From assembly GCA_016212375.1 (NCBI GenBank), contig JACRGH010000044.1, positions 1,428 to 65,427 of the forward strand: a DNA stretch of 64,000 nt, in the 5' to 3' direction. The translations under genes were made by a program, and so were the position numbers. This DNA is from Candidatus Micrarchaeota archaeon (GTDB lineage Archaea; Micrarchaeota; Micrarchaeia; Norongarragalinales; Norongarragalinaceae). This document shows positions 1,856 through 58,159 of this stretch, one piece after another; within the stretch, counting starts at the first letter, position 1; each line of letters starts with the position of its first letter. The notes under the pieces are model-generated. The model ran no database searches. It was not told the DNA's origin and saw only the letters and a program-made list of their open reading frames with translations.

Positions 1856-4147
1856 ATGCATGATTCCATGGCACCCGGACAGGCCGTCGTCAAAAGCGAC
1901 GGCGGCAAAAAAAGACTGGTTATCGACTACCGCGGCATGGCCTGGGGGCCGGACATCGCGCAATACGGACAGGCGTTTGCCGACGTGGTGGAAAAACTGC
2001 GCGAAGCCGATGCGGACGAAGTCGTGCTCAGCGAATATTACGAGCGCATTTACGACGAAAAGCAGACCAGTTGGCTGCGCGAAGTCGCCGATTTGATCAA
2101 CAACTTGGAAGCGGATGCCGTCTGGAGTCCCTCGCACCTGGGCAAGACCACGGAGTCCAAGACATTGGGGCCGCGCCACGATGCCGTCCTGAGGATATTG
2201 AACCTTATCAAGTCCGACCCGTTCAAAGCCTATCTGACGCTCATTCAGGAAATGAAAGGAGTAGCAGGGCAGGCGGCCAATGCCGGGCCGAACCTGGAAG
2301 ACGTCCAAATTTACCTCGGCACCCTGCGGTACATCCGGCAGAAAATGGAAGAGATGAAGCTCATCCAAGCCATGAAGGATTACCTGTCGCAGTTGGGTAG
2401 CATCCCCGAAGGCCGGACGGCATACCACGCGTTTTTCGAAAGTTCAATCAAGCCGTCGTTCATCGGCTCGCGCATCTTTTTCACGGCCACCGAACAGCTC
2501 GAATTGGTGGACCAGTACGACGTGGACGGGACCAAGGTGTACATCTATCGCCACCCCGACCAGGTGCAATACCAGTATTTCATCAACCCGCCGGAATACA
2601 GCCTGCCGCCGGAAAAATACTTCTTGTTGGAAAAAACCAAGGAAGTGGTGGCCCAGCACCGTCCTGAATCCGTCCAATTCCTCGACATCACCCAGGCGCG
2701 CAAATATTTCCGCAAAGTCTACGTGGCGACCATCGCGGATTTGGCCCTGAAAAACAACATCAAACTGACGGTCGAGGAAAAAGAGGACTTGGCCTCCATC
2801 GTGGCCCGCTACACCATCGGTTACGGCATCTTGGAAATCCTGCTTTCCGATCGCCGGGTCACCGATGTGTACATCGATTCCCCCCTAGGCGACAAACCCA
2901 TCTACTTGGTGCATGGCAAATACGGCCAATGCCAGACCAACGTCATCTTTTCCAATGAAGAGGCGCGAAGCATCGTGTCCCGTTTCCGTGCCCTTTCGGG
3001 TCGTCCGTTTGATGAGGGCCACCCCATCTTGGACTTTGATTTGGAAGACTTGCAGACGCGCATCGCCGTCATCGGAAAACCCCTTGCTTTGGATGGAATC
3101 GCATTCGCATTCCGGTTGCACAAACAGACGCCGTGGACCTTGGCGCAATTCGTGGACGGAAAAGCGTTCGACTCCTTTACCGCCGGCGTCCTGTCCTTTT
3201 TCGTCGACGCACAGGCGTCGATGTTGATTGTCGGATCCAGAGGCGCAGGGAAAACTTCACTTTTGCAGGCCATGATGTTGGAACTGCCGCAAAACCTACG
3301 CACCCTTGTCCAGGAAGACACCCAGGAGCTCCCCGTCCCCCAGATGAAGAAACTGGGACTGAACATCCAGCGCCTCAAGACCCGCCCGCCTTTGGGCGGT
3401 GGCACGGAAAGCGAAGTGTCAGCCGAAGACGCCCTACGAACTGCCTTGCGGTTGGGAGATTCCGTGTTGATTGTCGGTGAAGTCCGGAGTACCGAAGCTA
3501 AAGCCCTATATGAGGCCATGCGTGTCGGTGCCGTCGGTAACGTCGTCATGGGCACCATCCACGGCGAGTCGGCGTACAGCATCTGGGACCGGGTGGTGAA
3601 CGACTTGGGCGTTCCAACTACGTCCTTCAAGGCCACCGATTTTTGCGTCGTTGCCGCACCCATCCGGTTCAAAGGCTCGCTCAAGCGCTTCCGCCGGCTC
3701 ATCGAGCTGACCGAAGTGAAGAAAGACTGGTCGGAAGATCCCGGAAAGGAAGACGGATTTTTGCAGTGGATGACCTTCGATGCCAACAAGGACGGCTTGG
3801 ATTTGTTCAAGGAGGCCATCAAAAGCAAAAGCGAGTGGTTGCAAAAAGTGCAGCGCATGCGCGGCTTGGATTTCGACGCGGTTTGGAGCGAAATCGAGGC
3901 TAGGGGGCAGACCAAACAATACCTGGTTGACGCCAAGAACAAGTTGGAGATTCCACGCCTGCTAGAGGCTGAATACGCCGTCCGAGCGCATATGCACTAC
4001 TTATTGGCCTCGGAAAAACAACGCGAGGAAACCGGAAAAGTCGACTACCCCACCTTGATGGCCGGCTGGAAAGAATGGGTGGACCGCGAACTGGTCGCGG
4101 ATTTGGTGCGGCAAAAAGAAAGTGCGGCGCAAGGCGCGGCGGAATAG
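1856..4147 (+). CDS. Type IV pilus/archaellum-family secretion ATPase (FlaI/PilB/TadA/VirB11 superfamily) with a long N-terminal extension
   Basis: Walker A GSRGAGKTS, Walker B-like LIVGEVR, and the overall GspE-type architecture. It sits beside a TadC-like membrane protein and the pre-pilin genes. Confidence 0.8.
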   Translation: MHDSMAPGQAVVKSDGGKKRLVIDYRGMAWGPDIAQYGQAFADVVEKLREADADEVVLSEYYERIYDEKQTSWLREVADLINNLEADAVWSPSHLGKTTESKTLGPRHDAVLRILNLIKSDPFKAYLTLIQEMKGVAGQAANAGPNLEDVQIYLGTLRYIRQKMEEMKLIQAMKDYLSQLGSIPEGRTAYHAFFESSIKPSFIGSRIFFTATEQLELVDQYDVDGTKVYIYRHPDQVQYQYFINPPEYSLPPEKYFLLEKTKEVVAQHRPESVQFLDITQARKYFRKVYVATIADLALKNNIKLTVEEKEDLASIVARYTIGYGILEILLSDRRVTDVYIDSPLGDKPIYLVHGKYGQCQTNVIFSNEEARSIVSRFRALSGRPFDEGHPILDFDLEDLQTRIAVIGKPLALDGIAFAFRLHKQTPWTLAQFVDGKAFDSFTAGVLSFFVDAQASMLIVGSRGAGKTSLLQAMMLELPQNLRTLVQEDTQELPVPQMKKLGLNIQRLKTRPPLGGGTESEVSAEDALRTALRLGDSVLIVGEVRSTEAKALYEAMRVGAVGNVVMGTIHGESAYSIWDRVVNDLGVPTTSFKATDFCVVAAPIRFKGSLKRFRRLIELTEVKKDWSEDPGKEDGFLQWMTFDANKDGLDLFKEAIKSKSEWLQKVQRMRGLDFDAVWSEIEARGQTKQYLVDAKNKLEIPRLLEAEYAVRAHMHYLLASEKQREETGKVDYPTLMAGWKEWVDRELVADLVRQKESAAQGAAE

Positions 4148-4220
4148 GAGAAGACACCAAAGCGGGACAGCAACAGAGTAGTGAATTGGTACCAACACCG
4201 TAAAACGCAACTATACGGAC

Positions 4221-4601
4221 CTAATACCCTTCGACTTTCAACCCGCCAACCCGTGAAAAATGCTTGAGGTTGGGCGTCAGAAGCAACTCGTTTTCCACAA
4301 GGGCAACGGCGGCCATCATGCAATCCAACGCGCCGATATCCTGGCCTTGGTTTTTGAGGGTGCGGTAAAGGGCGCCGGCGGCTTCGGCATGCGCTTCGGT
4401 GAAAGGCACGGACTCCAAATGGTCCAACAACCGCCGTCGGCGTTGTTCAATCCCAGGAGGCGAGCCGGCACTTAATTCAAATACGGCCGGAGTGGGAACG
4501 CGGATACGCTGTCCGGAATTCTCATAACCGGCAATCTTCGCGATGAGCGCCTTGTTTTCCTGCGACAGGTGGATGACGGCGGCGGTGTCTAAGAGGACCA
4601 T
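4221..4601 (-). CDS. vapC: PIN-domain toxin VapC. The likely start is the internal Met of MVLLDTAAVIHL
   Basis: MVLLDTAAV N-terminus typical of VapC; acidic PIN residues; overlaps the upstream antitoxin gene. Confidence 0.65.
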   Translation of the reverse strand: MVLLDTAAVIHLSQENKALIAKIAGYENSGQRIRVPTPAVFELSAGSPPGIEQRRRRLLDHLESVPFTEAHAEAAGALYRTLKNQGQDIGALDCMMAAVALVENELLLTPNLKHFSRVGGLKVEGY

Positions 4602-4807
4602 GAGCGCACCTTGACTGACTCGCGGACCTTTTGGACGCCAGCCTGCCATTCGCGGGCTTCCTCGTCGGTGATGATGCGGCCCAAATCCGACACTTTTTCC
4701 TGGCGCAATAAGCGGGAGATTTCATCCGAGAAACTCTCATGGGCGTCCTTGCGTTTTTTGAGGCGGGCGTAGACCTCTTCGGAAATGCTGATATTTTTGA
4801 ATCCCAT
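4589..4807 (-). CDS. vapB: VapB-type antitoxin. The likely start is MGFKNISISEEVYARLKKRK
   Basis: Small protein with an ISISEEVYARLKK motif; paralogous to the antitoxin at 61560-61757; overlaps vapC by 13 nt. Confidence 0.55.
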   Translation of the reverse strand: MGFKNISISEEVYARLKKRKDAHESFSDEISRLLRQEKVSDLGRIITDEEAREWQAGVQKVRESVKVRSWSS

Positions 4808-4828
4808 ACTACACACATACCCACACCG

Positions 4829-4836
4829 ATATAAAA
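4829..4836 (-). promoter_or_regulatory. TATA box (TTTTATAT on the minus strand) for vapBC-1, giving a leaderless transcript
   Basis: Located 24-31 nt upstream of the vapB ATG. Confidence 0.3.
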
Positions 4837-4964
4837 CAGTTTGGGCGTTGTTCAACACCACCGCCACCACAACCACCAACGATGAACTACCGACCGCACC
4901 CACGAGAAAAAAATACAGGAAGCCGAAGACCTTTTATCCTGAGTTTCCGTCGATTCTAATCAGT

Positions 4965-7256
4965 ATGCCCCCCCGTAACCCATCCGGCAAACCTGAAAAA
5001 CCCCAAAAAGCCCAGAGCCTCTACTCTCAGGGCGATTCGGGGTACTCCGATTTTGACGAAGTCAAGACGGGTCCGCCCCAAGTGCCGGCATTTGTCAAGA
5101 CCACGCAAAGCTACGCCAAGATGTTCGCCTCGTACGGCAAGAACGGAAAATTCACGGATGAGGAGGCCGACGCGTTCGCATTTTTGGGCTGGGACGTGAC
5201 GCCGGAACAATTCTGCGCCGCGTACAAAGGCATCCGGACCGTCGGGTTGATGATCGGCGTAGTGATGGCGGTCGCGTTTTTCTTTTTGGCGGAAAATTTC
5301 CTGACCGATTTGCTGATGCGCGGCGTGTTTTGCGCCATCTTCATCGCCATGCCGCTTTTGATTTCACAAAACTACCGCAAAACACCATTCCAGCAGGTGG
5401 AAAAGGAAAAAATCCAGTCCTTGGCGTACGTCCCGGAAATCATCAATTATCTCACGATGAGCATGCGGCTGACGCCCAACTTGGAGCGCGCCGTCGAATT
5501 CGCCGCAAGCCACGGCCGCGGAAAAATCGCCGAGGACTTGAAGAAAATCGTCTGGGATGTCCAATTGGGACGTTACGAATCGGTCGAAGAGGGCTTGGAC
5601 GAATTGGCGTACCGCTGGGGCGCGTACAACGACGATTTCAAGCATGCCTTGATGATGATACGCGCGTCGGTGCTGGAGGCGGACAAGGAGAGGCGCTTTG
5701 CCTTGTTGGACAAAGCGGGCCAGGACGTCTTGGAAGGAAGTAAGGAAAAAATGGACCATTACGCGAGGAAATTGCAACAACCCACCGTGTACCTCTATTA
5801 CTTCGGCATCCTCCTGCCGCTGTTAATGGCGATTTTATTGCCCATCGGCTCCTCGCTTGCAAACATCGACTTGCTTTCCCGCGGCGAATTTTTGTTCGTC
5901 GTGTACAACATCATGATTCCCATCGGCGTGTTCGTTTTCGGCAAGAACATCCTGTCCAACAAGCCGCCCACCGGAACTCCGCCTAAGATTCCGGCCAACT
6001 TCCCGGGCCTGCCCAAAACCAAGCCCTTCACGTTCGTGGCCATTGCCTTGATTTTAGGCGGCGTCACCTTGGGCTATTTGACGGACATCGGCACCACGGC
6101 GGACGTCATCAACGGAGCCATCTATTTACCCGCCATGCACGCATTCATCGACCCGACGAACGACAATCCCGACCCGCTTTTGATTCCCGGCACCCTGGGG
6201 GGCATCAACACGTTTTTGGTCCGGCCCGAGGAACGTCAGGAAAAAATCCTCGACCAATTGGCCGTGCTGACCAAACCGGAGGAAGCCGGCGTACCTCGCA
6301 ACAGCCAGATTGCGGAGGAACTGCAAAAAATCCCCTACATCCGCCTTTTCGCACAACTGGGCATTTTCGTAGGCGAATTTGCCATTTTCGGCTTTTTGTT
6401 AGGCACCGGCATCGCCATCAGCATCTACCTGAATGGGAAATATTCCGAACGAAAAAAAGTCCAGGATGACGTTCGCGCCATGGAAACGGAATTCAAAGAC
6501 GCCATGTACGTCCTCGCATCCCGCATGGGCGAGAACAAACCCATTGAGGAAGCGTTGCGCTCCGCGGTCGCATTTTTGCCAAAAAGCAAAATCGGCCGCG
6601 ACGTATTCCGGCGGATTATCGAGAACATCTCCACGTTGGGCATGACTCTGGAAACCGCGATTTTTGACAAGACGTTCGGCGCCCTGCGCCTGGTACCCTC
6701 GCAAATCATCCGCAGCGGCATGCAATTTTTGGTCGACTCCGTGGATTTGGGCGTGGACGTGGCGGCGCGCTCCCTGATTGCGTTGTCCATGCAGTTGCGC
6801 AATTCGGAAAAAATCAACGAGTCCTTGCGCAAATTGTTGCAGGACGTGACCGTGATGCTGTCCACCATGGCAAGCTTTGTCGCACCCATCGTTTTGGGCG
6901 TCGTATCGGCGATGCAACGGCTCATCATCTCATCCTTGGCATCGCAGGGGTCCACAGGCGTGGAAGCAGGGGTGGACGCCGGCACCGGAGGAAGCGCCGT
7001 AGGCGGCCTAGGCGGGGGAGGCTTAAGCAGCATGTTCCAGGGAAAAGGCTTGGAAAACGCGGCAGAGCCCGGCTTGTTCATCCTGGTCCTTGGCATCTAC
7101 GCCTTGCAAATCGTCATCCTCCTGACGTACTTCAACTCGCAAATCGAGGACACCGGCAACGAACTGCACACCTACACCGCCATTGCAAAAAATGTTCCAC
7201 TCGCAATCGGCCTGTACTGTGCCACGGTGTACCTGGCGGGTACGTTTTTCAGTTAG
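4965..7256 (+). CDS. Polytopic membrane protein of the TadC/FlaJ/PilC (T2SS-F) family, the pilus assembly platform. The ORF opens at 4785 but the likely start is Met 4965
   Basis: Cytoplasmic alpha-helical domains alternate with transmembrane helix pairs. It lies directly downstream of the secretion ATPase and upstream of the pilins. The 5' part of the ORF overlaps vapB. Confidence 0.6.
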   Translation: MPPRNPSGKPEKPQKAQSLYSQGDSGYSDFDEVKTGPPQVPAFVKTTQSYAKMFASYGKNGKFTDEEADAFAFLGWDVTPEQFCAAYKGIRTVGLMIGVVMAVAFFFLAENFLTDLLMRGVFCAIFIAMPLLISQNYRKTPFQQVEKEKIQSLAYVPEIINYLTMSMRLTPNLERAVEFAASHGRGKIAEDLKKIVWDVQLGRYESVEEGLDELAYRWGAYNDDFKHALMMIRASVLEADKERRFALLDKAGQDVLEGSKEKMDHYARKLQQPTVYLYYFGILLPLLMAILLPIGSSLANIDLLSRGEFLFVVYNIMIPIGVFVFGKNILSNKPPTGTPPKIPANFPGLPKTKPFTFVAIALILGGVTLGYLTDIGTTADVINGAIYLPAMHAFIDPTNDNPDPLLIPGTLGGINTFLVRPEERQEKILDQLAVLTKPEEAGVPRNSQIAEELQKIPYIRLFAQLGIFVGEFAIFGFLLGTGIAISIYLNGKYSERKKVQDDVRAMETEFKDAMYVLASRMGENKPIEEALRSAVAFLPKSKIGRDVFRRIIENISTLGMTLETAIFDKTFGALRLVPSQIIRSGMQFLVDSVDLGVDVAARSLIALSMQLRNSEKINESLRKLLQDVTVMLSTMASFVAPIVLGVVSAMQRLIISSLASQGSTGVEAGVDAGTGGSAVGGLGGGGLSSMFQGKGLENAAEPGLFILVLGIYALQIVILLTYFNSQIEDTGNELHTYTAIAKNVPLAIGLYCATVYLAGTFFS

Positions 7257-7410: not shown

Positions 7411-7911
7411 ATGAAGTTTTCCAAGAAAAACACACGTGCCTTGCGCGGCCAAGCCTTTGACACCATGATGTTGGTCATTTCCGTCATTATTGCTATCGCC
7501 ATCTTGGGCGTTTTGATGAACATCCTAGGCGGCATCAAAATCGGGGTGAACGACCCGTCATCGGTGATGAAAACGGACTTGAAAAGCATCGTCTCCAGCG
7601 GATATGGCATTTCAACTCCCAAGAAAGTCAGTTTCGACTCCGGGGTAGCGATTTTGCCCGGCTCCGTTATCGGCGACTCACCGTTGCAACCGGGAGATAT
7701 CAAATTTACAACACACTCAGGTGACTTCGATACGTCCGTAATGGAAATCAACGATGACTCCATTAAAGTAAACAAGAATTCCCAAGGGTACGTCGTAGTC
7801 TGTGGAAATGATAACCCCGGCCGCTCAGGCAATCCCAAATACTGCATCAGTATCGCCCGACAGGCCAATGATGCCCGGGATACGTGCGTCCAAAAATGCA
7901 ATCTCCGTTGA
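7411..7911 (+). CDS. Pre-pilin with a class III (type IV pilin-like) signal peptide
   Basis: MKFSKKNTRALRG|QAFDTMMLVISVIIAIAILGVL: a basic N-region, then G followed by Q, then a hydrophobic helix. Confidence 0.65.
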   Translation: MKFSKKNTRALRGQAFDTMMLVISVIIAIAILGVLMNILGGIKIGVNDPSSVMKTDLKSIVSSGYGISTPKKVSFDSGVAILPGSVIGDSPLQPGDIKFTTHSGDFDTSVMEINDDSIKVNKNSQGYVVVCGNDNPGRSGNPKYCISIARQANDARDTCVQKCNLR

Positions 7912-8285: not shown

Positions 8286-9110
8286 ATGCTCAGCCCAATA
8301 AAAATAAAATTCGCCCACAAAAACGAGGGGGGAATCCGGAGGAACCTCAAACTGAAGGGACGACGCAAGTCTTCGAAGGACTTGCGAAGGCCACAATTCC
8401 TGGAAGGAATTGTGTGCGGACGCTCACCCCTGCGGTTCCGGCGGGGACAAATGGACGCCCCCATTGAATTGGTCATCGCCATCATTATCATGGTCACCAG
8501 CCTCGGATTGGGGTTTTACGTAATGGAAACCAGCAAAAACAACCAGTGCATATCCGCGCTACAGACGCAGACGCAACAGTTGCAGCAAGCCATCTTGGAC
8601 GTAGGGTTGGGCTCTGCCGGAAGCAAAAAAACGATCCGATTTTCCATGCCCAGTTGCGGGGACCAAGCCGTACAGGGCATCCAGTTCGTCAAATACACGT
8701 CCGCTGAATTGTGCCGCCGCTGTCCGGGCCATTATTCGGGGTGTTGGCAAATCGTGCCGGTTGCGCGCACCCGTGACGGCATGACGGCGGTCAGCGACGC
8801 GATTACCTGCATCGAATTGCCGGCAGAACGGGTGAGCATCGAGCAGGCACAGACACCGGACCAAAGTTGCACACCGTTAAGCACCACGCCCTGTCCGGAT
8901 GGTACGACCAGTTGCCTGAGCCAATTGGGCATCGGTTCTTCATTGTATAACCCGGCCTCCGGCACCGGCTCATCCAACTGGCTGACGTTGGGAAGCCAAA
9001 ACGCCCGCCAGTACCTCATCACGTTCAACAAGGTCCTTTCAGTCGGCGATGTGACGGGGCACACCCAAATCACGATGTGCGCGGTACCGGTGGGCGTTCG
9101 GACCAATTGA
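8286..9110 (+). CDS. Pre-pilin-like secreted protein. The true start is probably GTG 8412 (MCGRSPLRFRRG|QMDAPIELVIAIIIMV) or ATG 8451
   Basis: An RRGQ motif followed by a hydrophobic helix; Cys-rich C-terminal region. Confidence 0.5.
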   Translation: MLSPIKIKFAHKNEGGIRRNLKLKGRRKSSKDLRRPQFLEGIVCGRSPLRFRRGQMDAPIELVIAIIIMVTSLGLGFYVMETSKNNQCISALQTQTQQLQQAILDVGLGSAGSKKTIRFSMPSCGDQAVQGIQFVKYTSAELCRRCPGHYSGCWQIVPVARTRDGMTAVSDAITCIELPAERVSIEQAQTPDQSCTPLSTTPCPDGTTSCLSQLGIGSSLYNPASGTGSSNWLTLGSQNARQYLITFNKVLSVGDVTGHTQITMCAVPVGVRTN

Positions 9111-9221
9111 GAAAAGCCGCACCGCAAAACCGTGTAAAAAAAGACGCGTAAAAACGGATTCAAACCCGGGTCGGCCCAAATGTTCCAAACGGTTTAAAAC
9201 GCACGTAACGTTGTTGCTCTG

Positions 9222-9995
9222 ATGCGAGCCCGAAAAACAGTTGCCAGGACAAGCCACACCACAAAGGTCGGCAGTTTCCGCGGTCCACGTGATTCTTTTC
9301 GCGCCCAAATCGCATTGTGGATGATGACCAAATTTGCGATGGTCTTTTTCATCATCTTACTTGCCGGCATCATGATCAGTTTTTCCGACACGCAAAAAAC
9401 CGCCATCTGCCGCACGCAGGCGCAATCCATGGCCAACAACATCGCCTCGACGTTGAGCAACGTCATCAATTCCCCGGTGGAGGACGAACGCAAGGTCGTT
9501 TCCTTCGTGTCCTCGCTTTCGGTGGGCAAAAGCCAGCTGGAACGATACACCATCAACGTCACTAATATCCCGGCGCAGAACGACCCGAAAACCGGATCAT
9601 TGGTGGTGCACGTATTGTCCGGCATGGGGTGCGAAGGATACGCCCGCGCGTCTTATGACAAGACCATGACCATCATGGACCCGACAACGTTAAGTTCACG
9701 TTGGAATGCGGGTTTGAGCCTGGAAATGAGGCCATCGGACATCCAGAAACGGGATTACTACCTCATTATTGCCAAATGCAAACCAAAACAGGCCGGTTTT
9801 TCCAGCTATTTGTACTTGCGCCAATGCAACGGCGTGTTGGGGACGGAATTGAATCCGGAAACGTCATGTCCGCCTTATTTGGAAAGCGCGGAACCGGACA
9901 TGACCAAACGGTTGGTCGCAAATCCGCTGCTTCGATGCTGCGGATGGGAAGCAGTTGAAAACGGAGGAACACCCCAATGCCCGGCCCCCATCTGA
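9222..9995 (+). CDS. Pre-pilin-like protein (...FRA|QIALWMMTKFAMVFFIILLAGIMI)
   Basis: Class III-like N-terminus; part of the pilin gene array. Confidence 0.5.
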   Translation: MRARKTVARTSHTTKVGSFRGPRDSFRAQIALWMMTKFAMVFFIILLAGIMISFSDTQKTAICRTQAQSMANNIASTLSNVINSPVEDERKVVSFVSSLSVGKSQLERYTINVTNIPAQNDPKTGSLVVHVLSGMGCEGYARASYDKTMTIMDPTTLSSRWNAGLSLEMRPSDIQKRDYYLIIAKCKPKQAGFSSYLYLRQCNGVLGTELNPETSCPPYLESAEPDMTKRLVANPLLRCCGWEAVENGGTPQCPAPI

Positions 9996-10591
9996 ACACT
10001 AAACACCGCTCAAGGGGTTTCGTTGGCCCTTTGGGCGATGATTTACCCAGCATTTTCCCCATCGTTGCCGCCGTGGTATTGTTCATCGGCACATTGGCGT
10101 ATGCCAACGGCTTGGTCGAGGGCAAGAACCGCTTGCTTGAAACGCGCCAAGCCGCATTGGCGCTGTCCTACCTTGCGACGGAAACGGGCCTCATCAACAA
10201 TCGCACCGATTTTGAGCAAAACACCTGCAAAGACCATCTGATGAAATATGCGCTGTCCAACCGCATCCAATTTGCCGTGACCGTGAAGCGGTATTGCCAG
10301 AGCATCCAATTTTATTATCCACAAGCCAACCCGTCTCCTGAATACTTGAAAAAAAACCCGTCATACATTCAAAAAAACGATTTGGAAACGCAGGGCCAGA
10401 CGTGGGCGTATTGCACCAACAAGGTGGACATCAACGGAAATTCCCCGGCGGACGGGCTTTTGGGCGTGCCAGAAGATGCCGTCGTCTTCACGTACCCGGT
10501 AGCCGTGCCATGTCCATTGCCAAACCAGCCGCCGACCAACGGATTGGGCCTTATCAACGTGATTGCATGGAAGGAACGCGGAAAAATATGA
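9977..10591 (+). CDS. Pre-pilin-like protein (...SRG|FVGPLGDDLPSIFPIVAAVVLFIGTLAYA)
   Basis: Class III-like N-terminus; its stop overlaps the next ORF as ATGA. Confidence 0.5.
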   Translation: MPGPHLNTKHRSRGFVGPLGDDLPSIFPIVAAVVLFIGTLAYANGLVEGKNRLLETRQAALALSYLATETGLINNRTDFEQNTCKDHLMKYALSNRIQFAVTVKRYCQSIQFYYPQANPSPEYLKKNPSYIQKNDLETQGQTWAYCTNKVDINGNSPADGLLGVPEDAVVFTYPVAVPCPLPNQPPTNGLGLINVIAWKERGKI

Positions 10592-10682
10592 TTCACACAC
10601 GCGGAGTGCCGCATGACCGAGCCTTGGCATTGGAACGGGGTCGGACCAAGGAAAATGCCAGCGCCAACTCAAATGACATCCT

Positions 10683-10760
10683 CCCCGGGCTAAAGCCCGG
10701 GGTATCCCCGCAGGGGCAAGTTAAACAGCATTTGGGACATATTGCCGGCCTAAAGGCCGG
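10683..10760 (+). repeat. Two tandem ~45-bp units, each with a perfect GC-rich palindrome (CCCCGGGC-TAAA-GCCCGGGG and CCGGCC-TAAA-GGCCGG)
   Basis: Read directly from the sequence. They lie just upstream of the signal-peptide coding region of the sixth pilin. Confidence 0.8.
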
Positions 10761-10833
10761 GGTATGGCCCAAAGCGGAAGTCAAACAAAGACAAAAACTG
10801 AAAAACAAGCACCAATCGGCCGAACCCCAACCC

Positions 10834-11637
10834 GTGATTGGCAAACGGGGCCAGGCGGCCATTTTCGACGGCATCACCTTGTTGTTGCTGGCATCGATTT
10901 CGTCAGCGTTGATTTTCAGCTTTGTCAGCGGCTATGGGGTGCAACAGGACCGGGTGTTGCGTTCCGCCTACATCCTCAACTACATGCAAAGCGTGGTCAA
11001 GGCATCCTACTACGTCGACGCATCCACCTTGAGCAAGGTGGACAACCGGGAATACGGGCTCGACAGCCGCGGAATACCACGGGTAAACCAGTTGGAAATC
11101 TACCAGGACCTCAAGGACGACTGCCAAAAACTCAGCAAATACAGCGGAAGCTTTTCCGTCTCGGAATTGCTCAAGCGGGATTTGGCGGAAAAAAAACCTT
11201 TATTGGACGACAAGTTCGACGGCACCAACGCGCTGGGCATCACGGCGTACAAATGCGCCATCAAGGAACTGATGAAGCCGTTTTGGTACTCGGGTTTTTA
11301 CTACGGGTTCGACGTGATTGATTCGGACCGCGCCGATGGCCAGACCGTGCAAGTATTGCCCAAGACAGAAGTCGTGAATTCCACCACGACGTACAGTAAC
11401 AACCGGCTGGTGACGGACTATCCGGATTTCCTCAAAGGCACGATTCCGGTCGGCCAAAACGGCATCTGCGCCAGTATCGCGCAGAACAAAGGACCGAACG
11501 GGCGGGAATTGAGCCCGGACGTGGTGACGGTGGACGTGCCGTTCAAGGTCGTCTACGTCGACTCGCTCGTGAGTCCACCGGTGCGCCAATTACGGAATTA
11601 CGCATTGGCGTTTTGCATCTGGCATCCGGCGCAGTAA
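10834..11637 (+). CDS. Pre-pilin-like protein. I favour the GTG start at 10834 (MIGKRG|QAAIFDGITLLLLASISSALIFSFV); the ATG at 10588 would give a 270-aa protein with an atypical 80-aa leader
   Basis: A canonical class III signal appears only if translation begins near 10834. The 10402-10587 part of the listed ORF overlaps the previous gene. Confidence 0.45.
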   Translation: MIGKRGQAAIFDGITLLLLASISSALIFSFVSGYGVQQDRVLRSAYILNYMQSVVKASYYVDASTLSKVDNREYGLDSRGIPRVNQLEIYQDLKDDCQKLSKYSGSFSVSELLKRDLAEKKPLLDDKFDGTNALGITAYKCAIKELMKPFWYSGFYYGFDVIDSDRADGQTVQVLPKTEVVNSTTTYSNNRLVTDYPDFLKGTIPVGQNGICASIAQNKGPNGRELSPDVVTVDVPFKVVYVDSLVSPPVRQLRNYALAFCIWHPAQ

Positions 11638-11779
11638 ACGGAAAGGCCCGGTTCCAGAAATAGAAATATGCAACGGAAACCACCAAGACAAACCGCAACT
11701 GAAGAAAAGACATAAAAAAAGTTTTCGTACCGTCGTTTTTTTCTTTTACACTGCTATCGCACTAACGATGAGCGCGGCA

Positions 11780-12943
11780 TCAGACCGGCGCCTGTTTTTT
11801 CTTCACCGGAATATCTTCCTGGCACTTCGGGCACGCGTAGGTAAACCCATCGGGACCGGGCGTGACTTTGGGCGAACAATTGGCGCACATGCCGGTGCCG
11901 CAGTACGGGCAAAATACGATGCGGGAGTTCTTTTGGTGGCACGTCGGGCAGATGGGCGGGATGGCAATCGGAACGGACGTGACTTCCTTGTCCAATTGGG
12001 CAAAGACGCTCTTGGGCGACGTAGTAGAGTATGCTTTGGAAGGGCTTTCGCCGAACAAATCGGCCATGCTGACCGAACCGGCCTTTGCCGGAACAACGTT
12101 TGCCGCAGGAATCGATTTGGATGCAGGTACCACGGATTTTGTTGGGTTTTCGTCTTTAAGCAAATCGGGCGTTTTTTGGCTCCTGGCTTCGTCTTTTTTC
12201 TTATTGGCATCGGCGGCGTCATGGAAAGACAGATAGACGTCATCCACGATTTGTTTTTCCTCGGATTCCTGCGGTTTTTGGCGCGATGCCAGGTACAACC
12301 GGCGGTGGCGGCCGGCATCCGGACTTGCCGACAAAGCAGCCGGATAATCCAGCTGCAAATCCGTCAGGATGGCTTCCACTTCCGTCTCCCGGGCCTGCTC
12401 CAGGACGCGTTTGGCCTCCTTTACGTTTTGCGTTACGGCCGGACCGGATACAAACGAGGGGTCTGCAGTGCCCGAATCGGAAGCGGAACTACCGATGGCA
12501 TCGGACAATATGCCTTTTTTACGCAAGGCATCCATTTTCGCGGCCATCTCGTTGTCTCCGGGCGGTTTTTGCTCCAGACTTTCCAATTCCTTTTGCAACA
12601 AGGCCAGGCGTTTGGTCGCCGGAACGGCCACTTCAGGTTTGTCGGATTTCCGCAAGCCGACGAACATGACGACGAACGACAAACCAGAGGCGGAAAGCCA
12701 AAAGGCGGGCCAATAGCCTTGGCCGCGAAATACGGCATCCAACCCGGTGGATACCACGTCGGCAAGGATTGCCAAAACCGCGACAAAGGCACCCAAGAGG
12801 ACGGATGCGCCCAATTTTTCCTCCTGGCTGAAAGTGCGGACGTCCGGATAGGTGTAGCGGACGGCAAGATATCCAGGCGTTATGGAACCTAGGATGATGA
12901 ACAGATAATAGGCCAATGCGGCGACGATGTCCAATTCAGCCAT
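11780..12943 (-). CDS. Membrane protein with three N-terminal transmembrane helices, a coiled-coil or disordered middle, and a C-terminal double zinc ribbon (CPTC...CPYC...CANC...CPKC)
   Basis: Hydrophobic N-terminus and a four-CxxC C-terminus; sits at the end of the pilus locus. Confidence 0.5.
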   Translation of the reverse strand: MAELDIVAALAYYLFIILGSITPGYLAVRYTYPDVRTFSQEEKLGASVLLGAFVAVLAILADVVSTGLDAVFRGQGYWPAFWLSASGLSFVVMFVGLRKSDKPEVAVPATKRLALLQKELESLEQKPPGDNEMAAKMDALRKKGILSDAIGSSASDSGTADPSFVSGPAVTQNVKEAKRVLEQARETEVEAILTDLQLDYPAALSASPDAGRHRRLYLASRQKPQESEEKQIVDDVYLSFHDAADANKKKDEARSQKTPDLLKDENPTKSVVPASKSIPAANVVPAKAGSVSMADLFGESPSKAYSTTSPKSVFAQLDKEVTSVPIAIPPICPTCHQKNSRIVFCPYCGTGMCANCSPKVTPGPDGFTYACPKCQEDIPVKKKQAPV

Positions 12944-18373: not shown

Positions 18374-18474
18374 AACGCATAGGATAACTGAAAAAAAGAA
18401 TAGGAGTGGAGGAGGGGGGAGTTGCAACGGACCTTCTTTTCGAAAGAAGCGCCACCAAGAAAAATCCGATTAGA

Positions 18475-18635
18475 CCCCGAACCCCCCGAGTCTTGTTTTG
18501 CGAATCAAAATGGAGGAGGGGGGATTCGAACCCGCCGCGGGACCACAGGGGGAGCACCCCCTATAGTCCTACGTTACCCCGAACCCCCCGAGTCTTGTTT
18601 TGCGAATCAAAATGGAGGAGGGGGGATTCGAACCC
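18475..18635 (-). repeat. Two direct copies of a 59-bp tRNA-like unit (18475-18533 and 18577-18635). Each is a T-arm plus acceptor 3' strand plus a conserved trailer
   Basis: On the minus strand each copy reads GGGTTCGAATCCCCCCTCCTCCA-TTTTGATTCGCAAAACAAGACTCGGGGGGTTCGGGG. Only copy 2 has a perfectly paired T-stem (GGGGG/CCCCC). Confidence 0.6.
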
Positions 18636-18800
18636 CCGAAGGCGCTAGGCCACAGGATGGCTTACCCAAATCTGATTCGCGCACAAAAATAATTTTCTTT
18701 CTTTTGGCCGACCAGATTTTCTTTCTTTTCGGGAAAAGAAAGAAAAAATGGGCCTTAAGTCCTGCCCTTTTGGCCAGACTCAGGACACTCCTCCGCACAG
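18612..18800 (-). ncRNA. Candidate atypical tRNA-like gene. A 5' acceptor strand GGAGGAG at about 18790 would match the 3' acceptor CTCCTCC-A at about 18612, with roughly 115 nt between them. Possibly a tRNA with very large or non-canonical introns, or a split or decayed tRNA
   Basis: The acceptor strands are complementary and the T-arm is archaeal-type, but I could not fold a canonical D-arm or anticodon arm by hand. Confidence 0.25.
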
Positions 18801-22105: not shown

Positions 22106-22177
22106 AGCCCCGGACGAGGATCGAACTCGTGACCCCCTGTTTACGAAACAGGTGCTCTACCGCTGAGCTACCGAGGC
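22106..22177 (-). tRNA. tRNA-Thr (anticodon CGU), no encoded CCA
   Basis: Minus-strand fold: GCCTCGG-TA-GCTC-AGCGGTA-GAGC-A-CCTGT-TTCGTAA-ACAGG-GGGTC-ACGAG-TTCGATC-CTCGT-CCGGGGC-T. Confidence 0.85.
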
Positions 22178-22212
22178 AACTTGTTAATTCTTTTTTGCTT
22201 CCTTTTTGTTTG

Positions 22213-22346
22213 TTTTCTTTTCGGCAGGCCGCATTTCCCGGGCAAACGCATCTGCGTTTGCTGGGCCCCGCAAAGCCGAATGCTTTGCGCGGGTCTTTTC
22301 AAAAAAGAAAAGGCGACCGTGTCTGTACCGCTGAGCTACCGAGGCG
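22213..22346 (-). repeat. Promoter-proximal module upstream of tRNA-Thr(CGU), plus a 21-nt duplicate of the tRNA 5' end (22326-22346)
   Basis: In RNA sense: GCCTCGGTAGCTCAGCGGTA | CAGACACGGTCGCC | half hairpin CTTTTC-AAAAAA-GAAAAG | 63-bp nested palindromic insert | ATGCGGCCTGCCGAAAAGAAAAC | ~45 nt | tRNA. Confidence 0.7.
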
Positions 22347-22417
22347 TCTTGAGCAAAACCATCGACCCTGCCGGGTACGATGGCAAACTGGTTTTATCTA
22401 TCGACAATCTTTGAGCA

Positions 22418-25921: not shown

Positions 25922-26013
25922 GGACGATTAAGGATGAAGCCGGTTAAAAAAAGCGGTTGAAAATGCGCCTGGAAAAAAGTATAGAAAAACGACGACAGAT
26001 GCTAATTGGAAAA

Positions 26014-26040
26014 AAAGAAGCCCCCGACGCGAAGTGCAAC
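26014..26040 (-). repeat. Degenerate duplicate of the 3' end of tRNA-Thr(GGU) (TTCGCGTCGGGGGCT), with a conserved leader
   Basis: Minus-strand GGACTAAGGGGCGCTTCCCGTGGTCC...TTCGCGTCGGGGGCTTC. The leader resembles the GGACTATAGGGGGTGCTCCCCCTGTGGTCC found beside the 18475 repeat. Confidence 0.5.
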
Positions 26041-26127
26041 CCGGACCACGGGAAGCGCCCCTTAGTCCCAGGTTCCCCCGAACCCCCAACGAATGCTCGC
26101 GAATCACAAAATGAAAGAAAAAGAAAG

Positions 26128-26239
26128 AGCCCCCGACGCGAATTGAACGCGCGACCTCGTCCTTTTCGGAAAAGCCAATGGCAAAGTGCCGTTTGCTTTC
26201 TTACCATGGACGCGCTCTACCAGGCTGAGCTACAGGGGC
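26128..26239 (-). tRNA. tRNA-Thr (anticodon GGU) with a ~39-nt intron at or near the canonical 37/38 position
   Basis: GCCCCTG-TA-GCTC-AGCCTGGTA-GAGC-G-CGTCC-AUGGUAA-[intron GAAAGCAAACGGCACUUUGCCAUUGGCUUUUCCGAAAAG]-GGACG-AGGTC-GCGCG-TTCAATT-CGCGT-CGGGGGC-T. Confidence 0.75.
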
Positions 26240-26273
26240 AACTCGGTTACTCTTGATTTTTTCCTTTTTCTTC

Positions 26274-26355
26274 GTTTTCTTTTTCGGCAGGCCGCATTTT
26301 TCTTTTCGCAAAAGAAAAAGGCGACCGCGCCTGTACCAGGCTGAGCTACAGGGGC
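26274..26355 (-). repeat. Promoter-proximal module upstream of tRNA-Thr(GGU), plus a 22-nt duplicate of the tRNA 5' end (26334-26355)
   Basis: In RNA sense: GCCCCTGTAGCTCAGCCTGGTA | CAGGCGCGGTCGCC | hairpin TTTTTCTTTT-GCG-AAAAGAAAAA | TGCGGCCTGCCGAAAAAGAAAAC | ~35 nt | tRNA. Confidence 0.7.
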
Positions 26356-26625
26356 AATGGGCAAAGTCGATCGGACTGCCGCCAACATCGACAAGCTTCG
26401 ATACTAGTTCGTCGTGTTTTTCGGCATTGAAGCAAAGACGTTTGCAACCGCCGGTGACGCGACAAAAAAGGAAAACAAACTGGGGAGTTGGGGGTAAAAA
26501 AACCCTCCTACGGCCCGAAACGGGATGCTAAAAACGGGATGTAAAGGAAAAGGGGAAAAAGAAAAGATTTTGCCGGAAAACCGGCGTCAAAAAGGAGTCA
26601 ATCGTTCTAACGGACGTCGTGCCGT

Positions 26626-35396: not shown

Positions 35397-35427
35397 CATT
35401 ACTGAAAAGCGCAAGGAAGAAAAATCC
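35397..35427 (+). repeat. Copy of the dispersed A-rich intergenic motif CAYTACYGAAAAGCGCAAGGAAGAAAA
   Basis: One of at least six copies in long spacers: 35397, 36944, 37459, 40083, 57027 and 57608. Weaker variants lie at about 13056 and 42735. Confidence 0.6.
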
Positions 35428-57607: not shown

Positions 57608-57643
57608 CCATTACGGAAAAGCGCAAGGAAGAAAAGAAAAACC
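57608..57643 (+). repeat. Copy of the dispersed A-rich intergenic motif (CCATTACGGAAAAGCGCAAGGAAGAAAAGAAAAACC)
   Basis: Sequence similarity. Confidence 0.6.
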
Positions 57644-57698
57644 GGCAATTCGAAAAGTCCCAGACACATTAAACAACAAAACCTAAAGATGAAACCAT

Positions 57699-57785
57699 AT
57701 GCTACCAAACATGAATCCGAAGCAGATGGCCCAAATGGTCACCTTTTCTTTTCAAAAAGAAAAGGCGGCCTGCAGAAAAGAAAAC
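57699..57785 (+). repeat. Diverged ~45-nt duplicate of the NAC gene 5' end (57699-57743), followed by the promoter-proximal module: hairpin CTTTTCTTTT-CAA-AAAGAAAAG, then GGCGGCCTGC, then AGAAAAGAAAAC
   Basis: atgctaccaaacatgaatccgaagcagatggcccaaatggtcacc versus the true atgttaccgaacatgaatccgaaacaaatggctcaaatcatgaaa at 57818. The module matches those upstream of both tRNA-Thr genes. Confidence 0.7.
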
Positions 57786-57817
57786 AATTTTGTGCGCCAA
57801 TCAAATAGGTGAAACAT

Positions 57818-58159
57818 ATGTTACCGAACATGAATCCGAAACAAATGGCTCAAATCATGAAACAAATGGGCATCAAGAACGAACCCGTGGACGCCTTGAA
57901 AGTCGTGGTCTACAAGGCCGACGGCTCTCAGATGGTGGTCGAGCCGGCGCAGGTCATCCTGGTGGAAATGCAGGGACAAAAGAGCTTACAGGTGTCCGGC
58001 ACGTTTATCGAATCCAGCGGAAACCCCGACGACGCCACCCCAACAGACCTAGACCTCATCATGGATGAGACGGGTTGCTCAAAAGTAGAGGCGCAAAGTG
58101 CGCTTGACGAATCAAAGGGCGATTTGGCGGAAGCGATTTTGAAGTTGAAGAAGGAGTAA
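57818..58159 (+). CDS. nac: Nascent polypeptide-associated complex alpha subunit (NAC plus a C-terminal UBA domain). The listed ORF starts at GTG 57809; the ATG at 57818 has an AGGTGA Shine-Dalgarno-like sequence 6 nt upstream
   Basis: MLPNMNPKQMAQIMKQMGI...; a C-terminal UBA-like region. Confidence 0.8.
   Translation: MLPNMNPKQMAQIMKQMGIKNEPVDALKVVVYKADGSQMVVEPAQVILVEMQGQKSLQVSGTFIESSGNPDDATPTDLDLIMDETGCSKVEAQSALDESKGDLAEAILKLKKE

What the first reader, a model, noticed from the sequence alone, without database searches (positions are those of the whole stretch)
22178..22346. A recurring promoter-proximal module preceded by a duplicated copy of the downstream gene's 5' end, at tRNA-Thr(CGU)
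About 45-70 nt upstream of the tRNA, in the gene's sense, lies a conserved block: a T-rich/A-rich hairpin, then (A/G)TGCGGCCTGCCG, then AAAAGAAAAC. Immediately upstream of that block sits an exact 21-nt copy of tRNA positions 1-21 (GCCTCGGTAGCTCAGCGGTA), followed by CAGACACGGTCGCC and a T-tract. The same three-part arrangement recurs at 26274-26355 (tRNA-Thr GGU, a 22-nt copy) and at 57699-57785 (NAC, a diverged 45-nt copy). A related arrangement sits at 18690-18800. The duplicated fragments are gene-specific while the module between them is conserved. This suggests a mobile or copy-generating promoter and terminator cassette that creates long target duplications at gene 5' ends. Alternatively it could be a system that produces short decoy transcripts ending at the T-tract. 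I do not know of a described element with this behaviour.
Basis: seen in the sequence. Interest (0 to 1): 0.75.

Follow-up and report, generated by a model that had tools for sequence, protein, structure and literature searches.

The report
Hairpin mini-element duplicating gene starts
A roughly 50-110-base hairpin-forming repeat, found only in one group of tiny DPANN archaea (Micrarchaeota), sits between a left-behind copy of a gene's first 20-45 bases and the intact gene; mobile elements that integrate into gene ends leave this layout, but here the insert is only about a hundred non-coding bases and belongs to the same family as true tRNA and rRNA introns.

Summary
Three copies of a conserved hairpin module lie upstream of tRNA-Thr(CGU), tRNA-Thr(GGU) and the NAC gene. 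Each is preceded by a direct copy of that gene's 5' end. The core motif occurs 3 times against 0.03 expected, and 6 of the 7 short-range direct-repeat families in the window lie at these tRNA/NAC loci.

The module occurs only in Candidatus Micrarchaeota assemblies. Related genomes show filled and empty sites at both NAC and tRNA-Thr(GGU). In NAC there are three different junctions. The upstream copy keeps the gene's native flank and promoter, so it is the displaced original 5' end. The intact gene follows the module.

The closest known case is the tRNA-Thr fragment / insertion / intact tRNA-Thr arrangement in Caldiarchaeum, explained there by site-specific integration. Here the insert is only about 90-170 non-coding bases and also targets a protein-coding gene.

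My best reading is a miniature or decayed integrative cassette flanked by attL- and attR-like copies. The mechanism is inferred, not shown. The promoter, terminator and decoy-transcript roles are untested.

The parts
22106..22177 (-). intact tRNA-Thr(CGU), the reconstituted gene (attR side)
   Evidence: ARAGORN; Rfam 66.8 bits
22178..22210 (-). A-rich spacer between module and tRNA. It is partly conserved with the tRNA-Thr(GGU) spacer and with ortholog L030.
22211..22318 (-). module A copy 1: GGTCGCC, T-rich/A-rich hairpin, GCGGCCTGCCG, AAAAGAAAAC. A 57-nt nested double hairpin (22237-22293) sits in its loop.
   Evidence: covariance model R1 46.8 bits, E 1.5e-7, not a training sequence; fold; motif hit
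22319..22325 (-). 7-nt tail CAGACAC, a degenerate continuation of tRNA nt 21-27 (GAGCACC)
   Evidence: read; the pattern CA-N-R-C-R-C holds at all six tRNA-Thr loci seen
22326..22345 (-). exact copy of tRNA-Thr(CGU) nt 1-20, the displaced native 5' end (attL-like)
   Evidence: D5; identical in ortholog L030
26128..26239 (-). intact tRNA-Thr(GGU) with a 41-nt canonical intron
   Evidence: Rfam tRNA 46.1 bits at E-value threshold
26240..26273 (-). A-rich spacer, about 90% conserved in L033 and L026
   Evidence: alignment A2
26274..26326 (-). module A copy 2
   Evidence: 74 bits; training sequence
26327..26357 (-). tail CAGGCGC (26327-26333), copy of tRNA-Thr(GGU) nt 1-22 (26334-26355) and 2 shared flank bases
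   Evidence: D6
57693..57736 (+). upstream copy of the NAC start (5 nt of leader plus ATG at 57699 and codons 1-13). It lies in the native upstream context.
   Evidence: D2; its flank aligns with module-less relatives L075 and L072
57737..57786 (+). module A copy 3 (GGTCACC variant)
   Evidence: 67 bits; training sequence
57787..57817 (+). module-associated leader ATTTTGTGCGCCAATCAAATAGGTGAAACAT, containing a GGTGA Shine-Dalgarno-like box, directly before the intact NAC gene
   Evidence: the same leader type follows modules in L019, L021, L070, L073
57818..58159 (+). intact NAC gene (113 aa)
   Evidence: Pfam NAC/UBA_HYPK recorded for homologs
18659..18753 (-). related module variant forming a bulge-helix-bulge intron at position 37/38 of tRNA-Leu(UAA) (gene 18613-18794)
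   Evidence: BHB script: central helix CUUA/UAAG, outer helix 6 bp, inner helix 4 bp; R1 marginal, 22.9 bits, E 0.018

Best explanation
The module is one member of a family of short hairpin-forming mobile intervening sequences confined to a clade of Micrarchaeota.

At tRNA-Thr(CGU), tRNA-Thr(GGU) and NAC it is the body of a miniature or decayed integrative cassette inserted in the gene's 5'-terminal part:
- The upstream fragment is the original 5' end, still attached to the native flank and promoter (attL-like).
- The cassette contributes a degenerate tail, the hairpin, an A-rich leader and its own copy of the gene's first 20-45 nt. That copy is fused to the rest of the gene and keeps the gene intact (attR-like).

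This is the layout produced when an element whose attachment site contains a copy of a gene end recombines with that gene, as described for tRNA-Thr in Caldiarchaeum.

Shown: the anatomy, family membership, lineage restriction, filled and empty sites, native identity of the upstream copy, and different junctions.

Inferred: that the recombination is site-specific (integrase in trans) rather than some other kind; that the cassettes still move; and how the intact gene is expressed (read-through from the native promoter or a promoter in the module).
For: 1. Direct repeats of the gene's 5' end flank every copy in the window.

2. The module is restricted to Micrarchaeota. A scan of 185,579 species genomes gave true copies only in two Micrarchaeota MAGs. 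A metagenome scan gave only two (L030, L033).

3. Insertion polymorphism. NAC carries module plus duplication in the window, L021, L070 and L073. It does not in L066/L067, L068, L072, L075 or the outgroups L079 and L080. tRNA-Thr(GGU) is filled in the window, L033, L026 and L078 and empty in L077.

4. The upstream copy is the native one. About 110 nt upstream of the window's NAC fragment aligns with the upstream region of module-less L075 and L072; the sequence upstream of the intact copy does not. A conserved AAACGCTTTAGAACGC tRNA promoter lies upstream of the fragment in L026, L030, L033 and L078.

5. There are three NAC junctions (+34, +39, +46), and the two copies differ almost only at synonymous sites. 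This fits a cassette-borne copy captured from another lineage's working gene.

6. The junction-proximal part of each fragment is degenerate (CA-N-RCRC against tRNA nt 21-27; NAC codons 13-15) while the distal part is exact. This fits an attP arm inherited into attL.

7. A mirror arrangement exists at tRNA 3' ends, with tandem accretion at tRNA-Leu.

8. Published precedent: the same tRNA, a fragment of nt 1-27, an insertion, then the intact tRNA, explained by attP x attB recombination with inherited mismatches (PMC3293823).
Against: - The insert is only 90-170 bp and encodes nothing. No integrase was found among 18 window ORFs scanned, and no larger element with the same ends was found.
- A DNA circle of 102-119 bp is at or near the physical limit for site-specific recombination (my own knowledge).
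- The same module family occurs as bulge-helix-bulge introns without direct repeats. Simple integration does not explain that.
- All 13 single copies seen are in sense orientation. This hints at RNA-level constraint or RNA-level mobility.
- NAC upstream copies in L021, L070 and L073 look as constrained as the real gene (pN/pS about 0.14). The model accommodates this only if insertions are recent and recurrent.
- The fragment-to-tRNA block is 86-92% identical between genomes whose coding DNA is 70-80% identical. That could mean function rather than mobility.
Confidence: 0.5

Rival explanations
1. In-situ duplication without an integrase. The hairpin element inserts by transposition with very long staggered cuts, or by replication template switching or break repair at the palindrome. 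This duplicates the roughly 100-nt stretch that contains the gene end.
For: A 60-nt, 100% identical direct repeat (tRNA-Leu 3' end plus 37 nt of trailer) flanks a 42-nt hairpin insert at 18474-18635. This shows recent local duplication that extends beyond the gene. Repeat periods cluster at 102-119 nt. The palindrome centre is itself an insertion hot spot.
Against: The two NAC copies are saturated at synonymous sites and have unrelated leaders, so they are not a recent local duplicate. The right end of the 'insert' differs between loci (L019, NAC, tRNA-Thr), unlike a transposon with fixed ends. Duplication lengths range from about 22 to about 64 nt. All copies are in one orientation.
Confidence: 0.2
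2. The upstream fragment is a working alternative 5' exon. Transcripts from the native promoter are spliced by the broad-specificity splicing endonuclease at a bulge-helix-bulge-like motif formed between the two copies. This removes the module and the second copy's start.
For: NAC upstream copies keep the ATG, the Shine-Dalgarno-like box and codons 1-12, with almost only synonymous change in four genomes. Non-synonymous changes and junction variation lie beyond codon 12. An in-register motif (G/A)AU-GGCY-[CAR]-AU(C) can form at codon 12 in the window and L070, and partly in L021 and L073. The same family forms real BHB introns. Micrarchaeum has the epsilon2 endonuclease, which has broad specificity (PMC3239211, PMC5829648). 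NAC modules carry only T4 runs, whereas tRNA-Thr modules carry T5-T7.
Against: The motif is inherent to every NAC gene, with or without the module. Forcing it costs +8.4 kcal/mol relative to the minimum-free-energy fold. The outer and inner helices are only 0-3 bp. No acceptable in-register motif exists for tRNA-Thr; there is only a 2-nt-bulge GU-AGCU-CA-GC pairing that nearly any tRNA would give. The downstream copy is complete and equally conserved.
Confidence: 0.12
3. Regulatory cassette: the hairpin with T-runs terminates transcription from the native promoter, giving a short leader or 'decoy' RNA or peptide, and the A-rich arm is a promoter for the gene.
For: T5-T7 runs follow the tRNA fragments. 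The A-rich box plus a weak TATA-like stretch lies about 30-45 nt upstream of the NAC ATG and the tRNA 5' end. In 3 of 4 genomes the upstream NAC ORF ends within 15 nt of the intact gene's ATG.
Against: The same module with T4-T6 runs lies inside tRNA-Leu and 23S rRNA introns and in the rRNA spacer, where transcription must continue. In L022 two modules face each other inside a tRNA intron. The module does not resemble the genome's TTTAAA-type promoters. Regulation does not explain why the fragment must copy the gene.
Confidence: 0.08
4. Chance similarity or an assembly artefact.
For: None beyond the small number of copies per window.
Against: There are 3 hits against 0.03 expected. The same architecture appears in independent assemblies from NCBI, JGI, ENA and Logan. 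The covariance model gives E-values from 1e-6 to 1e-14.
Confidence: 0.01

Closest known systems
tRNA-Thr(GGU) fragment / 1.9-kb insertion / intact tRNA-Thr in Caldiarchaeum subterraneum (Sugahara et al. 2012, PMC3293823)
   Same: The same tRNA is involved. A 5' fragment (nt 1-27) with its native upstream flank is followed by an insert and then a complete tRNA. The arrangement is polymorphic within a population. A tRNA-Thr(CGU) gene is also targeted. The authors link it to intron gain.
   Different: There the insert is 1,868 bp with a putative recombinase gene and a repeated 545-bp region. Here it is 90-170 bp, non-coding, built round a conserved palindrome, recurs at a protein-coding gene, and belongs to a family that is itself used as introns.
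Archaeal integrative elements with SSV-type or pNOB8-type integrases (e.g. SSV1 in tRNA-Arg)
   Same: attP contains a copy of a gene end. Integration leaves a reconstituted gene plus a direct-repeat fragment, and attP/attB mismatches are inherited (as summarised in PMC3293823).
   Different: Those elements are kilobases long and encode the integrase. No integrase or larger version was found here.
Archaeal bulge-helix-bulge introns and tRNA intron transposition (Fujishima et al. 2010, cited in PMC3218864)
   Same: Related intervening sequences recur at several sites in one genome. Module variants form BHB introns at tRNA position 37/38, in the T loop (59/60) and in 23S rRNA. The fragment ends (20/21, 58/59) coincide with known non-canonical intron positions (my own knowledge).
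   Different: [quoted passage not shown]
Non-autonomous derivatives of mobile elements (bacterial CIMEs; MITEs) - from my own knowledge
   Same: They are short and non-coding, repeated, presumably mobilised in trans, and have palindromic structure.
   Different: CIMEs are much larger. MITEs give short target duplications of fixed length and insert in both orientations. Here the duplications are 22-64 nt, gene-specific, and always in sense orientation.
Split and permuted tRNA genes (Nanoarchaeum; Chan et al. 2011, PMC3218864)
   Same: tRNA fragments lie next to GC-rich pairing segments. That paper attributes partial tRNA fragments to integration events.
   Different: Here an intact tRNA is present, and the fragment lacks a complementary partner carrying the rest of the tRNA.

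Membership tests
Integrated element with att duplication of a gene end | Direct repeats of the target gene's end flank the insert, and one repeat is part of an intact gene | tested here: met
Integrated element with att duplication of a gene end | The fragment keeps the native flank, and empty sites exist in relatives | tested here: met
   NAC. tRNA-Thr(GGU): L077 is empty and its flank resembles the flank of the L033 fragment.
Integrated element with att duplication of a gene end | The insert encodes, or is accompanied by, an integrase/recombinase | tested here: not met
   The insert is 90-170 bp and non-coding. There was no integrase family hit in the 18 window ORFs scanned. Whole genomes could not be scanned.
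Integrated element with att duplication of a gene end | An excised circular form or donor replicon carries attP | tested here: inconclusive
   The viral collection gave no hit for the core motif or for fragment plus tail. Population reads were not available.
Archaeal bulge-helix-bulge intron | A 4-bp central helix flanked by two roughly 3-nt bulges at the exon-intron borders, whose removal restores the gene | tested here: not met
   Met for the tRNA-Leu(UAA) variant, the L002 23S rRNA copy and the L022 T-loop copy. Not met at tRNA-Thr. Only weak and energetically unfavourable at NAC.
Archaeal bulge-helix-bulge intron | Excision by the splicing endonuclease and ligation | not testable with these tools
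   This needs RNA data.
MITE / DNA transposon | Terminal inverted repeats, a short target duplication of fixed length, and insertion in either orientation | tested here: not met
   A palindrome is present. However, duplications are 22-64 nt and variable, the right boundary differs between loci, and all single copies are in sense orientation.
Archaeal BRE/TATA promoter | A TATA-like box about 26 nt upstream of the transcription start, preceded by a purine-rich BRE | tested here: inconclusive
   The A-rich box is at a suitable distance, but it is unlike the genome's TTTAAA boxes and also occurs inside introns. No transcription start data were available.
Split tRNA gene | Separately encoded halves that together make one tRNA, with complementary flanks | tested here: not met
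   An intact tRNA follows each fragment.

The most novel reading that the evidence does not exclude
These are a previously undescribed class of miniature, gene-end-carrying mobile cassettes, with a unit length of 102-119 bp that is about the smallest DNA circle a site-specific recombinase can handle. They move between Micrarchaeota lineages, replace a gene's promoter-proximal end, and can equally settle inside RNA genes as bulge-helix-bulge introns. They would then be a living intermediate between integrative elements, archaeal introns and fragmented tRNA genes. In the strongest version the displaced fragments are still used as alternative 5' exons, which would make NAC only the second spliced archaeal mRNA after Cbf5.
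Probability: 0.2. Interest if true: 0.85.

Novelty: new variant of a known kind. Interest (0 to 1): 0.58.

Why it matters
How archaeal introns, multi-intron tRNAs and split tRNA genes arise is an old open question. The leading idea is that mobile elements integrating into tRNA genes bring them in, and it rests on very few natural examples.

This clade offers a compact, repeated and polymorphic system. One sequence family appears as att-like insertions at gene 5' ends (including a protein-coding gene), as mirror-image insertions at tRNA 3' ends, and as bona fide introns in tRNA and rRNA.

The idea can therefore be tested with population metagenomics and RNA sequencing.

There is also a practical point for annotation. 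Two of the three tRNA genes in this window are missed by standard finders, and NAC start codons are called inconsistently where the module is present.

Tried and rejected
1. Simple promoter reading. Upstream regions of 41 ORFs show TTTAAA-type boxes at about -30; the module is unlike them.

2. Rfam. No family matches the module or module B. There were only chance or partial tRNA/tmRNA-like hits.

3. In-register bulge-helix-bulge splicing. My own scanner recovers the known-type introns. It finds nothing convincing at tRNA-Thr or at L070/L021 NAC with standard geometry. The window's NAC motif costs 8.4 kcal/mol.

4. Split or trans-spliced tRNA. Rejected, because intact tRNAs are present.

5. Viral or plasmid donor. 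Three scans of the viral collection were run. The core motif and the fragment-plus-tail pattern gave no hit. The covariance model found nothing in the 80 loci that were fetched.

6. The IS (DDE_Tnp_1) next to NAC in L066. Its ends (GGCTTTGCGTCAA) are unrelated to the module.

7. A possible larger element downstream of tRNA-Thr in L078. No second copy of the tRNA 3' end flanks it.

8. Old duplication with both copies selected, versus lateral origin. Synonymous sites are saturated between all lineages, so trees of the 33-45-nt copies are uninformative.

9. Literature searches for Micrarchaeota or DPANN introns found no description of this element.

Full report
**What is in the window**

The window comes from a Candidatus Micrarchaeota (DPANN) genome. 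Its NAC protein is 100% identical to an NCBI entry of that name on a 66.9-kb contig, and every true relative of the element is from Micrarchaeota assemblies.

tRNA-Thr(CGU) lies at 22106-22177 on the minus strand. Reading upstream in the gene's sense, I find:
- a 33-nt A-rich spacer (22178-22210);
- the conserved module (22211-22318);
- a 7-nt tail CAGACAC;
- an exact copy of tRNA nt 1-20 (22326-22345).

The module is GGTCGCC, TTTTCTTTT..loop..AAAAGAAAA, (T)GCGGCC, TGCCG, AAAAGAAAAC. It folds into a 16-17-bp hairpin with a GC clamp.

The same order recurs twice:
- At tRNA-Thr(GGU), 26128-26239. This gene carries an intron and was found only with Rfam at relaxed threshold. The order is spacer, module 26274-26326, tail CAGGCGC, then a copy of nt 1-22.
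- At NAC. The order is a 44-nt copy at 86% identity (57693-57736), module 57737-57786, a new leader, then the ATG at 57818.

The motif occurs 3 times against 0.03 expected. Six of the seven short-range direct-repeat families in the 64 kb are at these tRNA/NAC loci.

**Correcting the fourth site**

The region 18690-18800 is not promoter-proximal. It is the interior of a tRNA-Leu(UAA) gene (18613-18794, minus strand) that both tRNA finders miss.

The gene carries a 95-nt intron at the canonical 37/38 position with a textbook bulge-helix-bulge motif: central helix CUUA/UAAG, bulges AG|G and CC|A, outer helix 6 bp (the anticodon stem), inner helix 4 bp.

The intron contains the same T-rich/A-rich hairpin, GC-rich segment, A-rich box and GTGCGCGAATCA motif. 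As a sequence match it is only marginal to my covariance model (22.9 bits, E 0.018).

**The family elsewhere**

I scanned one genome per species (185,579 genomes) with GCGGCCTGCMGAAAARRAAA. True copies, meaning copies with the left arm and hairpin, turned up only in two Micrarchaeota MAGs (JACROM01 and JACPGT01). The remaining hits are unrelated bacterial matches and one Candidatus ainarchaeum contig (L027) without the left arm or hairpin. A metagenome scan added two more (L030, L033). The viral collection gave none for this motif.

I built covariance model R1 from seven short copies. It finds the following non-training copies:

| Copy | Bits | E-value |
|---|---|---|
| Window's CGU copy, despite its 57-nt loop insert | 46.8 | 1.5e-7 |
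| L021, L078, L033 | 33-43 | 8.2e-7 to 1.3e-4 |
| L002, inside a 23S rRNA gene | 55 | 2e-9 |
| L022, inside a tRNA-Leu(GAG) T loop | 41 | 3e-6 |

R1 finds nothing in about 90 kb of related but module-less loci.

The 23S copy lies exactly between GAGAGUUCAU and AUCGACC. It has a 4-bp helix GUUC/GAAC with bulges AU|U and AA|A.

The T-loop intron is about 195 nt, made of two inverted modules. It has central helix UUCA/UGAA, an outer helix equal to the T stem, and an 8-bp inner helix. Family members are therefore real archaeal-type introns in some places.

All 13 single copies seen are in sense orientation relative to the host gene.

**The arrangement is an insertion polymorphism, and the upstream copy is the native one**

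At NAC the archease-NAC synteny is conserved throughout.
- Module plus duplication is present in the window, L021, L070 and L073.
- It is absent in L066/L067, L068, L072, L075 and the outgroups L079 and L080.
- There are three junctions: +39 in the window, +34 in L021, and +46 in L070 and L073.
- About 110 nt upstream of the window's fragment aligns with the upstream region of the module-less genes in L075 and L072. The sequence in front of the intact copy does not.

At tRNA-Thr(GGU):
- the window, L033, L026 and L078 are filled;
- L077 is empty, and its tRNA flank resembles the flank of the L033 fragment;
- a conserved classical promoter, AAACG(C/T)TTTAGAACGC, lies upstream of the fragment and not upstream of the intact tRNA, in L026, L030, L033 and L078.

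So the fragment is the displaced original 5' end. The module, leader and second copy are on the inserted side.

**Sequence relations between the copies**

Synonymous sites are saturated between all these genomes (pS 0.37-0.80), while pN is 0.02-0.13.

Within a genome, the two NAC copies differ almost only synonymously:
- window: 5 synonymous, 1 conservative;
- L021: 7 synonymous, 0 non-synonymous;
- L070 and L073 add non-synonymous changes, of which the two in L070 and two of the three in L073 lie in codons 13-15 next to the junction; L073 also has M5V.

The upstream copy in L021 is identical (33/33) to the downstream copy in L073.

At tRNA-Thr, nt 1-20/22 of the fragment equal the resident tRNA in every lineage. 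This holds in L078, whose tRNA differs at three positions. The next 7 nt follow a shared degenerate pattern (CA-N-R-C-R-C against GAGCRCN).

The block from fragment to tRNA is 86-92% identical between genomes whose coding DNA is 70-80% identical and whose flanks do not align.

**Mirror image at 3' ends**

Downstream of tRNA-Thr(GGU) and tRNA-Leu there is a second hairpin family, which I call module B. Its pattern is GGGGGTTCGGGG..GGACTA.AGGGG-loop-CCC.GTGGTCC.G. It is followed by a copy of the tRNA's last 15-23 nt and then the native terminator.

L077 and L033 have it at tRNA-Thr(GGU); L026 does not.

At tRNA-Leu there are two tandem units, and one pair of 60-nt repeats is 100% identical.

Repeat periods are 102, 104, 109, 116 and 119 nt. 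The sixth is 168 nt, which equals 111 plus a 57-nt nested insert.

**Interpretation**

The anatomy matches what Sugahara et al. described at the same tRNA in Caldiarchaeum. There, a fragment of tRNA-Thr(GGU) nt 1-27 with its native flank is followed by a 1,868-bp insertion with a putative recombinase and then a complete tRNA. The arrangement is polymorphic in the population. The authors explain it by recombination between an attP that carries the tRNA's 5' end and the chromosomal gene, with attP/attB mismatches inherited (PMC3293823).

That model accounts for most features here:
- gene-specific direct repeats around a conserved body;
- a native flank on the fragment;
- the exact distal and degenerate proximal parts of the fragment (attP arm inherited into attL);
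- synonymous-only differences (the cassette's copy was captured from another lineage's working gene);
- junctions that are a property of the element rather than of the event;
- the need for the insert to carry a leader, and possibly a promoter;
- the mirror arrangement and tandem accretion at 3' ends.

I therefore commit to a miniature or decayed integrative cassette, with confidence 0.5.

Several things do not fit comfortably:
- the tiny non-coding insert, with no integrase found;
- the absence of any donor replicon in what I could search;
- the strict sense orientation;
- the use of the same family as introns without direct repeats;
- the gene-like constraint on NAC upstream copies (pN/pS about 0.14 between L070 and L073, the same as the whole gene). 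The model absorbs this only if insertions are recent and recurrent.

**Rivals**

Local duplication at the palindrome is supported by the 60-nt perfect repeat at tRNA-Leu. It is contradicted at NAC by saturated divergence and unrelated leaders.

Splicing between the two copies would neatly explain the coding constraint limited to codons 1-12. However, the motif is inherent to all NAC genes, is weak, costs 8.4 kcal/mol, and has no counterpart at tRNA-Thr.

The terminator-plus-promoter or decoy reading is untested. It is weakened because the same T-runs lie inside introns and the rRNA spacer, and because two modules face each other inside a tRNA intron.

**Verdict**

This is a real, lineage-specific element. 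It is a new, miniature variant of a known kind of event (integration into a gene end with duplication of that end), with an unexplained link to archaeal introns.

Noticed in passing
window 18613-18794 (-): A tRNA-Leu(UAA) gene with a 95-nt canonical bulge-helix-bulge intron. ARAGORN misses it, and so does Rfam at gathering threshold.
   Followed up: yes
window 18395-18612 (-): Two extra tandem copies of the tRNA-Leu 3' end lie downstream of the gene (period 102-104 nt), each preceded by TTTTGATTCGCAAAACAAGACTCGGGGGGTTCGGGGT. One pair of 60-nt repeats (18474-18533 / 18576-18635) is 100% identical. Rfam aligns one unit weakly to the tRNA-like part of tmRNA (20.7 bits, below threshold).
   Followed up: partly
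window 26005-26127 (-): Module B (GGGGGTTCGGGGGAACCTGGGACTAAGGGGCGCTTCCCGTGGTCCGGGTTGCAC) followed by a copy of the last 15 nt of tRNA-Thr(GGU) and the terminator. It is present in L033 and L077 and absent in L026.
   Followed up: partly
window 22237-22293 (-); also L021, L033, L078, L002, L019: Small GCAAA..TTTGC-type hairpins are nested exactly in the loop of the module-A palindrome. The palindrome centre is itself an insertion hot spot.
   Followed up: no
window 22350-22395; L002 about 4290-4500; L022 about 7740-7790; L026 about 4950-5000; L078 about 4060-4110: A recurring GC-rich hairpin followed by TT(T/C)GCTCA(A/G), just upstream of tRNA 5' ends or of their fragments.
   Followed up: no
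L002 250-520 (-) and about 4190-4290 (-): An 87-nt module-type intron in 23S rRNA (E. coli region about 2449). The tRNA-Ala(UGC) gene in the rRNA spacer carries a small T-rich/A-rich-hairpin intron and is followed directly by a full module A.
   Followed up: partly
L022 3935-4235 (+) and 7620-8000 (+): Two tRNA genes are interrupted in the T loop (59/60) by pairs of inverted modules that form long palindromic introns. tRNA-Leu(GAG) also has a 5' fragment copy (-9..+20) about 270 nt upstream.
   Followed up: partly
window, e.g. 9190, 13630, 19555, 22390, 24430, 44040, 47080: Most protein-coding genes have a TTTAAA/TTTTAT-type box about 30 nt upstream of the ATG, which suggests leaderless mRNAs. 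NAC and the L019 aminotransferase instead have a GGTGA box 6-7 nt before the ATG.
   Followed up: no
window 57617-57645 and 35404-35425: The string GAAAAGCGCAAGGAAGAAAA occurs upstream of the NAC fragment and again upstream of ORF 35514. It resembles the A-rich right arm of the module and may be an older remnant.
   Followed up: no
window 8286-12892 (+): Four consecutive ORFs (274, 257, 411 and 374 aa) have no Pfam match.
   Followed up: no
L078 about 4440-5400: About 1.2 kb of extra DNA lies downstream of tRNA-Thr(GGU). It contains a small ORF with a GRGHDF...E.K nuclease-like motif. No second copy of the tRNA 3' end flanks it.
   Followed up: partly
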